Both the position numbers and the translations under genes were made by a program. The notes beneath the pieces were generated by a model that did not search any database, had not been told where the DNA came from, and worked only from the letters and a program-made list of their open reading frames with translations. From a virus (Duplodnaviria > Heunggongvirae > Uroviricota > Caudoviricetes): 64,000 nt of DNA. The stretch lies in the IMG/VR virus record IMGVR_UViG_3300028833_000137; one strand, written 5' to 3'. Positions 32,022-32,202 of this stretch are shown in pieces. The number at the start of each line of letters is the position of its first letter. Position 1 is the first letter of the stretch.

Positions 32022-32202
32022 TGGTGAGAGTGGAGGGAATCGAACCCTCGACGCCTAGATTAATGGTCCCAGTCTTTGGTACTGCCCCATAATCTTATTG
32101 GTGGTTTTCTCAATTAATGTACACTCTTATACGAACCTACCAACACGTTTTCTTTAAACTAAACTGAGAAGTCTAGTGCTCTTCCTACTGAGCTACACTC
32201 CC
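32022..32202 (-). tRNA. tRNA gene interrupted by an insertion of about 105 nt in the anticodon loop; exons fit tRNA-Lys(UUU) or tRNA-Arg(UCU)
   Basis: Perfect 7/7 acceptor GGGAGUG/CACUCUC, canonical D-arm GCUC-AGUAGGAA-GAGC, anticodon stem halves CUAGA...UCUAG separated by 112 nt, variable GCGUC, T-arm GAGGG-UUCGAUU-CCCUC, CCA. The loop reconstructs as CUUUUAA (Lys) or CUUCUAA (Arg). Confidence 0.5.

What the first reader, a model, noticed from the sequence alone, without database searches (positions are those of the whole stretch)
32022..32202. tRNA gene with an anticodon-loop insertion of about 105 nt
All canonical arms are intact: a 7/7 acceptor stem, a textbook D-arm and T-arm, an encoded CCA, and anticodon stem halves CUAGA and UCUAG. 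The two halves are separated by 112 nt instead of a 7-nt loop.

The insertion is too short for a group I intron (at least about 200 nt). It resembles archaeal or eukaryal protein-spliced tRNA introns, which are not expected in a bacteriophage. It could be a novel small self-splicing or ribozyme-bearing intron, a regulated or inactive tRNA, or a substrate for a phage-encoded splicing activity. The insert contains GGGGCAGUACC, related to a motif found in two 5' leaders.
Basis: seen in the sequence. Interest (0 to 1): 0.75.

Follow-up and report, generated by a model that had tools for sequence, protein, structure and literature searches.

The report
tRNA-like gene nested inside phage tRNA-Lys
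A phage lysine tRNA gene is split in its anticodon loop by a 105-base insert that is itself a small tRNA-like gene ending in CCA, one of a widespread and apparently undescribed family of "tRNA-in-tRNA" inserts that may be cut out by ordinary tRNA-trimming enzymes and the tRNA resealed by a phage RNA ligase.

Summary
On the minus strand, 32022-32202 is a complete tRNA whose anticodon-stem halves are 112 nt apart. Insert-free alleles in related phage contigs identify it as tRNA-Lys(UUU) and place a 105-nt insert (32064-32168) exactly between U34 and U35.

The insert is not a group I intron, a BHB intron or a known ribozyme. It is a cloverleaf-like tRNA-like RNA with its own 7-bp acceptor stem, an unpaired A and CCA, and the CCA abuts the 3' exon.

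The window holds a second case: tRNA-Leu(UAA), 37432-37567, with a 50-nt insert. Related phage and metagenome contigs hold dozens more in Lys, Leu, Ile, Gln, Glu, Asn and suppressor tRNAs, at loop positions 32/33 to 36/37. Three of those inserts are complete tRNAs.

Every insert runs from an acceptor 5' end to CCA (CAA in two), and the flanks always rebuild a 7-nt loop. Thirteen diverged insert-bearing tRNA-Leu genes keep 100% stem pairing with compensatory changes, so the host tRNAs appear functional.

Inferred mechanism, not shown: RNase P cuts 5' of the insert, an RNase Z/E-type enzyme cuts after CCA, and the phage Rnl2-like ligase (41632-42282) seals the nick. No Rfam family or paper describing this was found.

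The parts
32169..32202 (-). 5' exon of tRNA-Lys(UUU), tRNA positions 1-34 (acceptor 5' strand, D arm, CUAGA, C32 U33 U34)
   Evidence: Sequence reading. The boundary is fixed by the insert-free alleles L001, L004 and L005. In-silico splicing gives ARAGORN tRNA-Lys(ttt).
32064..32168 (-). 105-nt nested tRNA-like insert: acceptor-like stem CUCAGUU/GACUGGG, GUUU-AAAGA-AAAC hairpin, long central arm, UAUGG-GGCAGUA-CCAAA T-like arm, then unpaired A and CCA
   Evidence: The empty-site comparison defines the ends. Folded alone, its MFE structure is a cloverleaf with a free ACCA tail. It belongs to the 'A2' family, whose cloverleaf is supported by covariation.
32162..32168 (-). Inner acceptor 5' strand CUCAGUU. 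The proposed RNase P site lies immediately 5' of it, between U34 and C
   Evidence: 7/7 pairing with 32068-32074. The acceptor helix covaries at 7 of 7 pairs across family A2. The cleavage itself is inferred.
32075..32091 (-). Inner T-like arm UAUGG-GGCAGUA-CCAAA, stacked directly on the inner acceptor stem
   Evidence: The GGCAGYAC motif is enriched in the window. The same non-canonical loop is invariant in family A1 and in free-standing tRNA-like genes.
32064..32074 (-). Inner acceptor 3' strand GACUGGG followed by discriminator A and CCA. The proposed 3' cut lies immediately after CCA
   Evidence: Sequence reading. Every family member ends in CCA (CAA in two) abutting the 3' exon.
32022..32063 (-). 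3' exon of tRNA-Lys(UUU), positions 35-76 (U35 U36 A37 A38, UCUAG, variable loop, T arm, acceptor 3' strand, ACCA)
37432..37567 (-). Second interrupted gene: tRNA-Leu(UAA) with a 50-nt 'A1' minihelix insert at 37484-37533, between U34 and A35
   Evidence: ARAGORN with its intron option. Covariance model R1 hit, 52 bits, E=5e-9. The flanks rebuild the loop CUUAAAA. The spliced sequence is called tRNA-Leu(taa).
50510..50584 (-). Free-standing 75-nt paralogue of the insert (family A2), sitting like a tRNA gene 3' of tRNA-Ile(UAU)
   Evidence: It shares UAGUNUAAAGAANACG and GGGCAGUACC with the insert. The same 75-nt element is nested in a tRNA-Lys(UUU) in L290.
41632..42282 (-). Phage RNA ligase (Rnl2-like nucleotidyltransferase domain), the candidate exon-sealing enzyme
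   Evidence: Pfam PF09414, E=6.4e-17. PHROG 548 'RNA ligase', E=9.5e-23. Weak PDB match to T4 Rnl2. Its role in splicing is inferred.
42971..47042 (-). Rest of the RNA-repair module: cREC cyclic-phosphate-processing domain (42971-43324), Ro60/TROVE+vWA-like protein (43966-45498), metallophosphoesterase (46440-47042)
   Evidence: Pfam. AlphaFold2 model plus Foldseek against the PDB: top hits are TROVE, Rsr and Ro60, E about 4e-7, TM about 0.5.

Best explanation
The locus is a phage tRNA-Lys(UUU) gene whose anticodon loop, between U34 and U35, carries a nested 105-nt tRNA-like gene. This is one instance of a family of 'tRNA-in-tRNA' inserts found in uncultivated tRNA-rich phages.

Shown here:
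- the identity of the tRNA
- the exact boundaries of the insert
- the tRNA-like anatomy of the insert
- the family rule: each insert runs from an acceptor 5' end to CCA, and the flanks rebuild a 7-nt loop
- purifying selection on insert-bearing host tRNAs

Inferred mechanism:
1. The gene is transcribed with its neighbours as one precursor.
2. RNase P recognises the inner acceptor/T-arm stack plus ACCA and cuts between U34 and the first inner nucleotide. This leaves a 3'-OH on the 5' exon.
3. An endonuclease that makes CCA ends in one step (RNase Z/BN-type or RNase E-type) cuts right after the inner CCA. This leaves a 5'-phosphate on the 3' exon.
4. The two exons stay paired through the acceptor and anticodon stems, forming a tRNA with a nick in its anticodon loop.
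5. The phage ATP-dependent Rnl2-like ligase seals the nick, giving mature tRNA-Lys(UUU).
6. The released tRNA-like RNA is a second product. It may be a partner of the phage Ro60-like protein.
For: Boundaries. Insert-free alleles with identical exons fix them.

Inner anatomy. The insert has a 7/7 terminal stem followed by A and CCA, and alone it folds as a cloverleaf.

Family A2 (11 sequences). 15 of 21 pairs show compensatory change, including all 7 acceptor pairs. The same element occurs free-standing in tRNA arrays and nested in another tRNA-Lys, in L290.

Family A1.
- All 26 full-length covariance-model hits lie inside tRNA anticodon loops, with flanks summing to a 7-nt loop of the form CUNNNAA (or CUNNNAC).
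- 97% of stem cells are paired, 11 of 12 pairs are compensatory, and the 7+5 bp stack matches the acceptor/T stack of a tRNA.

Complete tRNAs as inserts. Three inserts are called tRNAs by ARAGORN in their own right: Lys-UUU inside Gln, and CUA-anticodon tRNAs inside Ile.

Variable position. Insert positions vary from 32/33 to 36/37 even for homologous inserts in orthologous tRNAs. This fits excision defined by the insert, not by exon context.

The host tRNAs appear functional.
- 13 diverged insert-bearing tRNA-Leu(UAA) genes have 100% of 260 stem cells paired.
- 16 of their 20 pairs show compensatory changes.
- Their loop is invariant.
- 20 of 21 in-silico spliced genes are called tRNAs.

Codon demand. 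The interrupted genes are the only Lys-UUU and Leu-UAA genes in the window. AAA makes up 66% of Lys codons, and UUA, at 43%, is the most used Leu codon.

Ligase. One is present, and in the window's clade it co-occurs with inserts.

Precedents. Some RNase Z enzymes, and RNase E, generate encoded CCA ends in one cut and need little beyond the acceptor stem (PMC7479834). Rnl-type ligases need a 3'-OH and a 5'-phosphate (PMC7824862).
Against: - There are no RNA data. Neither cleavage nor ligation has been observed.
- The enzyme for the cut after CCA is unknown, the host is unknown, and Bacillus-type RNase Z is inhibited by CCA.
- The nested double cloverleaf of the 181-nt precursor is computed 5.2 kcal/mol above the MFE structure, which pairs the anticodon-stem halves with the insert.
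- Folding z-scores of single inserts are not significant.
- The ligase is a short Rnl2-like domain of untested specificity. T4 Rnl2 prefers nicks in duplex RNA (own knowledge).
- The repair module includes cyclic-phosphate healing enzymes, which RNase P/Z-type ends would not need.
- Ligase relatives exist in tRNA-rich phages where no inserts were detected (L271, L272).
- Ligase presence could not be checked for most insert-bearing contigs, because only parts of them were held.
- The invariant unpaired nucleotides of family A1 (CCAGUG, GGCAGCA) are more than a simple RNase P substrate would need.
Confidence: 0.55

Rival explanations
1. Selfish insertion with no splicing. A mobile tRNA-like element has landed in the anticodon loop and inactivated a dispensable phage tRNA gene. 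The 181-nt RNA is never converted into a working tRNA-Lys.
For: Insert-free alleles exist in close relatives, so the insert is recent and dispensable. The same insert types occur in different tRNAs and at different loop positions, as expected for a mobile element. No splicing evidence exists.
Against: - Insert-bearing tRNA-Leu(UAA) genes that have diverged to a mean column identity of 77% keep 100% stem pairing, with 16 of 20 pairs compensated and an invariant loop.
- In every case the flanks sum to exactly 7 loop nucleotides with U33 and the expected anticodon.
- The interrupted genes decode the phage's most used Lys and Leu codons and have no intact duplicate in the window.
Confidence: 0.12
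2. The host tRNA serves as an expression scaffold. The real product is the inner tRNA-like RNA, for example a Y-RNA-like partner of the phage Ro60-like protein, or a decoy for host anticodon nucleases. RNase P and 3' trimming release it, and the outer halves are by-products that are not religated.
For: - A Ro60/TROVE-like protein is encoded beside the ligase, and Ro proteins work with tRNA-like RNA partners (PMC7824862).
- The same inner elements also exist as free-standing genes in tRNA arrays.
- Some inserts are complete tRNAs that must be released to work.
Against: A scaffold would not need a conserved anticodon, U33, an exact 7-nt loop sum, or the full identity set of the outer tRNA. This rival is compatible with, rather than exclusive of, release followed by religation.
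Confidence: 0.15
3. A new small self-cleaving or self-splicing RNA. The insert, or at least the A1 type, catalyses its own excision. The phage cREC domain, phosphoesterase and ligase then heal and seal the resulting 2',3'-cyclic phosphate and 5'-OH ends.
For: - Family A1 has 18 invariant nucleotides, mostly in unpaired regions.
- The repair module includes a predicted cyclic-phosphate-processing domain and a metallophosphoesterase.
- No known enzyme has been shown to make the cut after CCA.
Against: - There is no match to any Rfam intron or ribozyme model at E<=10.
- Insert types with unrelated interiors share only the tRNA-end architecture. These include the 43-44-nt minihelix with a canonical UUCAACU T-loop, the 105-nt cloverleaf, and complete tRNAs.
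- The GGCAGCA loop also occurs in free-standing tRNA-like genes, where no cleavage is needed.
Confidence: 0.08
4. An archaeal/eukaryal-type protein-spliced (bulge-helix-bulge) intron, or a degenerate group I intron.
For: The insert lies in the anticodon loop, and a U precedes the 5' junction, as in group I introns.
Against: - BHB: the junctions lie in a 3 x 8-nt internal loop between the anticodon stem and the inner acceptor stem. There are no 3-nt bulges separated by 4 bp, and the position is 34/35.
- Group I: there is no RF00028 match, the insert is only 105 nt, and it ends in A rather than G.
- No splicing-endonuclease domain appears among the 50 window proteins scanned.
Confidence: 0.02

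Closest known systems
Group I introns in bacterial and phage tRNA anticodon loops (for example cyanobacterial tRNA-Leu(UAA), Azoarcus tRNA-Ile)
   Same: An intervening sequence in the anticodon loop of a bacterial-type tRNA. tRNA-Leu(UAA) is a favoured host, the 34/35 site is used, and a U precedes the 5' junction.
   Different: The inserts are 43-105 nt, against roughly 200 nt or more. There is no P3-P9 catalytic core (no Rfam match). They end in CCA rather than G. Their termini pair with each other as an acceptor stem instead of forming P1 with the exon.
Archaeal/eukaryal BHB introns, and split or permuted tRNA genes
   Same: Probable protein-dependent cut-and-ligate logic. Several positions are possible. 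The exons are held together by the tRNA body.
   Different: There is no bulge-helix-bulge motif. The cleavage signals are the mature 5' and 3' ends of a tRNA-like element. The setting is phage/bacterial, with no EndA-type endonuclease found.
tRNA-like processing signals: plant mitochondrial t-elements and MALAT1 mascRNA (own knowledge; t-elements also PMC1920247, listed)
   Same: A tRNA-like fold embedded in a longer transcript is recognised by RNase P at its 5' end and by a 3' tRNA endonuclease, releasing a small CCA-ended RNA.
   Different: Those elements punctuate mRNAs or lncRNAs. Nothing is religated, and none sits inside another tRNA.
Phage T4 repair of PrrC-cleaved tRNA-Lys (Pnkp plus Rnl1) and jumbo-phage RNA-repair modules (PMC7824862)
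   Same: A break in the anticodon loop of tRNA-Lys(UUU) is sealed by a phage-encoded ATP-dependent RNA ligase. The window carries such a module: ligase, cREC and phosphoesterase.
   Different: In T4 the break is made by a host defence nuclease and no RNA is removed. Here the break would be programmed in the gene by an intervening tRNA-like RNA.
Bacterial Ro (Rsr) - Y RNA (YrlA) - RtcB modules
   Same: A Ro60-like protein, an RNA ligase and small tRNA-like RNAs are encoded together. The tRNA-like domain of YrlA is handled by tRNA enzymes (own knowledge).
   Different: Y RNAs are free-standing and carry a Ro-binding helix. No Rfam Y-RNA match was found here. Binding of the insert to the phage Ro-like protein is untested.
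Engineered 'tRNA scaffold' RNAs (foreign RNA placed in the anticodon arm of tRNA-Lys or tRNA-Met; own knowledge)
   Same: The same architecture: a structured RNA carried in the anticodon region of an otherwise intact tRNA.
   Different: These are man-made and are not excised. The natural inserts carry their own processing signals.

Membership tests
tRNA (outer gene, tRNA-Lys UUU) | Cloverleaf with a 7-bp acceptor stem, D, anticodon and T arms, a 7-nt anticodon loop with U33, and a discriminator followed by CCA | tested here: met
   After in-silico removal of 32064-32168, ARAGORN calls tRNA-Lys(ttt), 76 nt. The sequence is identical to the uninterrupted genes in L001, L004 and L005.
Group I intron | Conserved catalytic core (P3-P9), detectable with Rfam RF00028 | tested here: not met
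   No Intron_gpI match at E<=10 in 31900-32320 or at the gathering threshold over the whole window.
Group I intron | Terminal G at the 3' end of the intron, and a length of about 200 nt or more | tested here: not met
   The insert is 105 nt and ends ...GGGACCA. Other family members are 43-77 nt and end in CCA or CAA.
Group I intron | U immediately 5' of the splice site | tested here: met
   The 5' exon ends in U34. Within the family, however, position -1 is U, A or C, so this is not a rule here.
BHB (archaeal/eukaryal) tRNA intron | Bulge-helix-bulge: two 3-nt bulges on opposite strands separated by a 4-bp helix at the splice sites | tested here: not met
   Read from the sequence: a 3-nt 5' segment (CUU) and an 8-nt 3' segment (ACCA+UUAA) flank the junction between the anticodon stem and the inner 7-bp stem.
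BHB (archaeal/eukaryal) tRNA intron | A splicing endonuclease (EndA/Sen) available | tested here: inconclusive
   No such domain appears among the 50 window proteins scanned with Pfam. The host genome and the rest of the phage genome were not available.
Known self-cleaving ribozymes (hammerhead, twister, pistol, hatchet, HDV-like and others) | Match to the family covariance model | tested here: not met
   No match at E<=10.
RNase P / tRNA 3'-end-processing substrate (inner element) | A 7-bp acceptor helix stacked on a 5-bp T stem with a 7-nt loop, plus a single-stranded NCCA 3' tail | tested here: met
   In the window insert: CUCAGUU/GACUGGG, then UAUGG/CCAAA (4 of 5 paired), then ACCA. In family A1: a 12-bp stack, 97% paired, with 11 of 12 pairs covarying.
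RNase P / tRNA 3'-end-processing substrate (inner element) | Actual cleavage at the predicted phosphodiester bonds | not testable with these tools
   This needs in-vitro processing assays or end-mapping by RNA-seq.
ATP-dependent RNA ligase (Rnl2-like), window 41632-42282 | Nucleotidyltransferase domain of the RNA ligase family | tested here: met
   PF09414, E=6.4e-17, over the full profile. PHROG 548, E=9.5e-23. Weak match to T4 Rnl2, E=0.0025. Activity and substrate are untested.
Bacterial Y RNA (Ro partner) | A tRNA-like module plus a Ro-binding helix, encoded with a Ro orthologue | tested here: inconclusive
   A Ro60/TROVE-like protein is present and the insert is tRNA-like. There is no Rfam Y-RNA match, and no Ro-binding helix was identified.

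The most novel reading that the evidence does not exclude
A third kind of tRNA intron, alongside group I and BHB introns. The intervening sequence is a tRNA or tRNA-like minihelix, and its own mature ends are the splice sites. Ordinary tRNA end-processing enzymes (RNase P plus a CCA-end-generating endonuclease) would therefore excise it, and a phage RNA-repair ligase would join the exons. One transcript would then yield two RNAs.

A further possibility concerns origin. The inserts may have arisen at the RNA level: a mature CCA-ended tRNA-like RNA could have been ligated by the repair ligase into a tRNA cut by an anticodon nuclease, and the product copied back into DNA. That would explain why the boundaries are exactly mature RNA ends and why only anticodon loops are hit.
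Probability: 0.45. Interest if true: 0.9.

Novelty: categorically new. Interest (0 to 1): 0.86.

Why it matters
If these inserts are spliced as proposed, bacteria-infecting viruses have a tRNA splicing pathway built entirely from RNase P, a 3' tRNA endonuclease and an RNA-repair ligase. That would be a new role for phage RNA ligases, which until now have been explained only as counter-defence repair enzymes.

It would also mean:
- Standard tRNA finders undercount phage tRNAs. Two of the 29 tRNA genes in this window, the decoders of its commonest Lys and Leu codons, are invisible to default ARAGORN and Rfam.
- Complete tRNAs, including suppressor-type tRNAs, can be hidden inside other tRNAs.
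- A mobile class of tRNA-like genes specifically colonises anticodon loops.

The inserts are short, have defined ends, and could be tested directly in vitro with three enzymes.

Tried and rejected
- **Group I intron, BHB intron and known ribozymes.** Rejected on the Rfam scans and on direct reading of the junctions.
- **Assembly artefact.** Rejected, because the same insert occurs in at least four other contigs.
- **Near-identical or distant DNA search in isolate phages.** The near search found nothing. The distant search hit only the exons, as tRNA-Lys or tRNA-Arg, plus a 30-nt match to Lak phages at E=0.6 that I treat as chance. GyrA-like protein identity to any isolate phage is at most about 32%, so the host remains unknown.
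- **Generic 'stem + hairpin + NCCA' scan.** Too noisy to use: 263 hits against 109 in shuffled sequence. It was replaced by a covariance model.
- **Strict A1 pattern in 185,579 bacterial and archaeal genomes.** 94 matches, none with the structure. In all of IMG/VR the same pattern gave 22 stretches, 13 of them true and all nested.
- **Ligase co-occurrence test.** Inconclusive. Ligase homologues were found only in the window's clade and in two distant phages without detected inserts. Other insert-bearing contigs were held only in part.
- **CCA enrichment.** 73% of ordinary tRNA genes in these loci encode CCA, against 25 of 26 A1 hits. This is only weakly significant, and my detection of the other insert types required CCA or CAA, so it is biased.
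- **Thermodynamics.** Single-sequence z-scores are not significant, and the nested fold of the precursor is 5.2 kcal/mol above the MFE. The structural support is comparative.
- **Literature.** Ten full-text searches found no description of tRNA-like or minihelix inserts in phage tRNA genes. The library lacks most subscription journals.
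Full report
**1. The observation**

The feature is on the minus strand, 32202 to 32022 (181 nt). It sits 3 nt after tRNA-Gln(CUG) and 8 nt before tRNA-Ser(GCU), inside a phage array in which default ARAGORN finds 27 tRNAs.

The sequence shows directly:
- acceptor stem GGGAGUG/CACUCUC
- D arm GCUC/GAGC
- T arm GAGGG-UUCGAUU-CCCUC
- A73 and CCA
- CUAGA and UCUAG separated by 112 nt

Default ARAGORN and the Rfam tRNA model do not report it. 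ARAGORN with its intron option reports c[32022,32202] with a 105-nt intron but calls the anticodon UCU.

**2. Identity and exact boundaries**

Exact searches of IMG/VR with either exon half return the same five contigs.
- Three (L001, L004, L005) carry the identical 76-nt gene uninterrupted, with loop CUUUUAA, that is tRNA-Lys(UUU).
- One (L002) carries the same 105-nt insert.
- One (L003) carries a different 44-nt insert two nucleotides further 3'.

The window gene is therefore:
- 5' exon: 32169-32202, ending C32 U33 U34
- insert: 32064-32168
- 3' exon: 32022-32063, starting U35 U36 A37 A38

The flanks of the empty-site alleles align at 94-99% with a clean 105-nt gap and no target duplication. 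A metagenome scan found the identical insert in three more contigs (L284, L287, L291).

**3. What the insert is**

Its first seven nucleotides (CUCAGUU) pair 7/7 with the seven nucleotides (GACUGGG) that precede its last four, which are ACCA. Folded alone, its minimum-energy structure is a cloverleaf:
- an acceptor stem
- a GUUU-AAAGA-AAAC hairpin at the D-arm position
- a long central arm
- a small hairpin with loop GGCAGUA stacked on the acceptor
- a free ACCA tail

It shares UAGUNUAAAGAANACG and GGGCAGUACC with a 75-nt element that stands free, like a tRNA gene, just 3' of tRNA-Ile(UAU) at 50510-50584 and in tRNA arrays of related contigs.

In an alignment of 11 members of this 'A2' family, 15 of the 21 cloverleaf pairs show changes on both sides, including all 7 acceptor pairs. 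The covariation score is 0.46, against 0.06-0.13 for slid controls.

The same 75-nt element is nested in a different tRNA-Lys(UUU), after U35, in L290. A 73-nt relative is nested in a tRNA-Ile(UAU) in L092.

No Rfam family matches the insert at E<=10.

**4. A second case in the window, and a family**

ARAGORN with its intron option finds a second interrupted gene at 37432-37567. It is tRNA-Leu(UAA), with a 50-nt insert at 37484-37533 after U34.

This 'A1' insert has:
- a 7-bp terminal stem
- about 14 unpaired nucleotides containing an invariant CCAGUG
- a 5-bp stem with invariant 7-nt loop GGCAGCA, stacked directly on the terminal stem (7+5 = 12 bp, as in the acceptor/T stack of a tRNA)
- an unpaired A and CCA

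I built a covariance model from seven sequences. In about 1 Mb of fetched phage DNA it found 26 full-length copies. All 26 lie inside a tRNA anticodon loop between a 5-bp stem. In all 26 the flanking loop nucleotides sum to seven and read CUNNNAA or CUNNNAC.

On the model-fitted alignment, 97% of stem cells are paired and 11 of 12 pairs show compensatory change. The covariation score is 0.83, against 0.07-0.13 for slid controls.

Homologous A1 inserts sit at 32/33, 34/35 or 35/36 in orthologous tRNA-Leu(UAA) genes. They also occur in Ile(UAU), Gln(UUG), a CUA-anticodon tRNA, and a short-variable-arm tRNA with anticodon UAA.

Further insert types obey the same boundary rule:
- a 43-44-nt minihelix with a canonical UUCAACU T-loop, in Lys, Gln and Glu
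- 49-50-nt inserts in Asn(GUU)
- 70-77-nt cloverleaves in Lys and Ile

Three inserts are called tRNAs by ARAGORN in their own right:
- a tRNA-Lys(UUU) inside a tRNA-Gln(UUG), in L107
- CUA-anticodon tRNAs inside tRNA-Ile(UAU), in L011 and L154

Two inserts end in CAA instead of CCA.

A strict A1 pattern found 13 true copies in all of IMG/VR, every one nested. It found none among its 94 chance matches in 185,579 bacterial and archaeal genomes. So far the family is seen only in uncultivated phages with large tRNA sets. The nearest isolate phage is at about 32% identity for a GyrA-like protein.

**5. Are the interrupted tRNAs functional?**

- Thirteen distinct insert-bearing tRNA-Leu(UAA) genes were spliced in silico and aligned; mean column identity is 77%. 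All 260 stem cells form standard pairs, 16 of 20 pairs show compensatory changes, and the loop CUUAAAA is invariant, even though the insert occupies three different positions.
- Twenty of 21 spliced constructs are called tRNAs with the expected anticodon.
- In the window the two interrupted genes are the only Lys(UUU) and Leu(UAA) genes. AAA is 66% of Lys codons, and UUA, at 43%, is the commonest Leu codon in 16 long ORFs; window G+C is 35.5%.

This is what precise removal of the insert at the RNA level predicts. It is hard to reconcile with dead genes. It remains comparative inference; no RNA was observed.

**6. Mechanism (inferred)**

The only feature common to all insert types is that they begin at the first base of an acceptor helix and end with N-CCA, which are the mature ends of a tRNA. 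An acceptor/T-arm minihelix with 3' NCCA is the classical minimal substrate of bacterial RNase P (established knowledge). RNase P would therefore cut immediately 5' of the insert, leaving a 3'-OH on the 5' exon.

The 3' exon follows CCA with no spacer, so exonucleolytic trimming would destroy it. A one-step endonucleolytic cut after CCA is needed. Such cuts are documented for Thermotoga and methanomicrobial RNase Z, which need little more than the acceptor stem and a matured 5' end, and for RNase E. Bacillus RNase Z, by contrast, is inhibited by CCA (PMC7479834).

These cuts would leave a 3'-OH and a 5'-phosphate at a nick in the anticodon loop of an otherwise paired tRNA. That is the substrate chemistry of ATP-dependent Rnl-type ligases (PMC7824862).

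The window encodes such a ligase at 41632-42282 (PF09414, E=6.4e-17; PHROG 548; a distant match to T4 Rnl2). Beside it are:
- a cREC domain
- a metallophosphoesterase
- a Band_7 protein
- a protein whose predicted fold matches Ro60/Rsr (TROVE+vWA; Foldseek E about 4e-7)

Excision defined by the insert itself explains why homologous inserts tolerate different loop positions and different host tRNAs. The released RNA would be a stable CCA-ended tRNA-like molecule, and in some cases a real tRNA. Since Ro proteins work with tRNA-like RNA partners, it may serve the Ro-like protein; this is speculative.

**7. Weak points**

- No cleavage or ligation has been observed, and the host and the 3' nuclease are unknown.
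- The ligase's specificity is untested.
- Healing enzymes in the module would not be needed for RNase P/Z-type ends.
- For this precursor the nested double cloverleaf is computed at -46.8 kcal/mol against -52.0 for the MFE, which pairs the anticodon-stem halves with parts of the insert.
- Single-sequence folding z-scores are unremarkable.
- The invariant unpaired nucleotides of family A1 suggest a specific partner, or a tertiary fold (an alternative 'elbow'), beyond simple RNase P recognition.
- The ligase co-occurrence test was inconclusive.

**8. Comparison with what is known**

Functionally, the closest analogies are:
- tRNA-like punctuation elements cut out by RNase P and RNase Z (plant mitochondrial t-elements, mascRNA)
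- phage T4 repair of the PrrC-cut tRNA-Lys anticodon loop

Formally it is a tRNA intron, but it fails the defining tests for group I introns (no core, no terminal G, too short) and for BHB introns (no motif). It matches no Rfam ribozyme or RNA family. Ten full-text literature searches found no description of such inserts. The library is incomplete, so prior description elsewhere cannot be excluded.

**9. Verdict**

The better description is a tRNA-like gene nested in the anticodon loop of tRNA-Lys(UUU), one member of a phage-wide tRNA-in-tRNA family. The family, its boundary rule and the selection on the host tRNAs are shown here. The RNase P / CCA-end nuclease / ligase pathway is the best-supported mechanism but is inferred.

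Noticed in passing
window 37432-37567 (-), insert 37484-37533: A second interrupted tRNA, tRNA-Leu(UAA), with a 50-nt minihelix insert after U34. Default ARAGORN and Rfam miss it.
   Followed up: yes
window 50510-50584 (-): A free-standing 75-nt tRNA-like element (family A2, paralogue of the 105-nt insert) between tRNA-Ile(UAU) and a small ORF starting MNKYKFGR. It is conserved in this position in L045-L048 and in several metagenome contigs.
   Followed up: partly
window 50115-50190 (-): A 76-nt cloverleaf with anticodon loop CUGCAAA (GCA), discriminator U, CCA and the non-canonical T-loop GGCAGCA. It looks like an unannotated, non-canonical tRNA-Cys. Neither ARAGORN nor Rfam calls it. Relatives in L007 and L011 lack CCA, and one has anticodon GUA.
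   Followed up: partly
window 34597-35190 (-): A full-length ROOL RNA (Rfam RF03087, 328.8 bits) lies inside the tRNA array, next to tRNA-Asn.
   Followed up: no
window 37599-37695 (-) and 53077-53124 (-): A drum RNA (RF02958) lies directly upstream of the interrupted tRNA-Leu(UAA). A DUF3800-XI RNA (RF02975) lies directly upstream of tRNA-Ser(UGA).
   Followed up: no
window 41632-50086 (-): An RNA-repair gene module: Rnl2-like ligase, cREC domain, a DUF2828/DUF7788 protein whose AlphaFold2 model matches Ro60/Rsr (TROVE+vWA), a metallophosphoesterase, DUF5662 and a Band_7/SPFH protein. A PIN-PhoH protein is at 22327-23595.
   Followed up: partly
window ~31590-31700 (-) and 31516-31532: A stretch with a type-II-like D arm (GGCGGAACAGGUAGACGC), a TAAGG-TGCAAAT-CCTTA T-arm and a 6/7 acceptor pairing, but no recognisable anticodon arm. 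Nearby is an orphan T-arm (TAGGGTTCGATTCCCTA). These may be a degenerate tRNA or one interrupted in a different way.
   Followed up: no
L154 5236-5354, L082 651-769, L092 12781-12900, L157 1163-1296: A different kind of tRNA interruption: about 45-50 nt between the D arm and the anticodon arm, containing an ACAGCAA-like motif and not ending in CCA. It is not explained by the model proposed here.
   Followed up: no
L107 13625-13775; L011 2643-2794; L154 2702-2855: Complete tRNAs nested in other tRNAs: a tRNA-Lys(UUU) inside tRNA-Gln(UUG), and CUA-anticodon (amber-suppressor-type) tRNAs inside tRNA-Ile(UAU).
   Followed up: partly
L009 7273-7319; L092 9942-10091: Two inserts end in ACAA instead of ACCA. 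They may be decaying copies, or evidence that the first C is not essential.
   Followed up: no
window 50591-50666 (-): A tRNA-Ile with a genomically encoded UAU anticodon and no encoded CCA. About 27% of ordinary tRNA genes in insert-bearing loci lack an encoded CCA.
   Followed up: partly
window 36519-37280 (-) and 12403-13233 (-): Free-standing HNH and GIY-YIG endonuclease genes. The HNH gene lies next to the Leu tRNA genes and could promote gene conversion of insert-bearing alleles.
   Followed up: no
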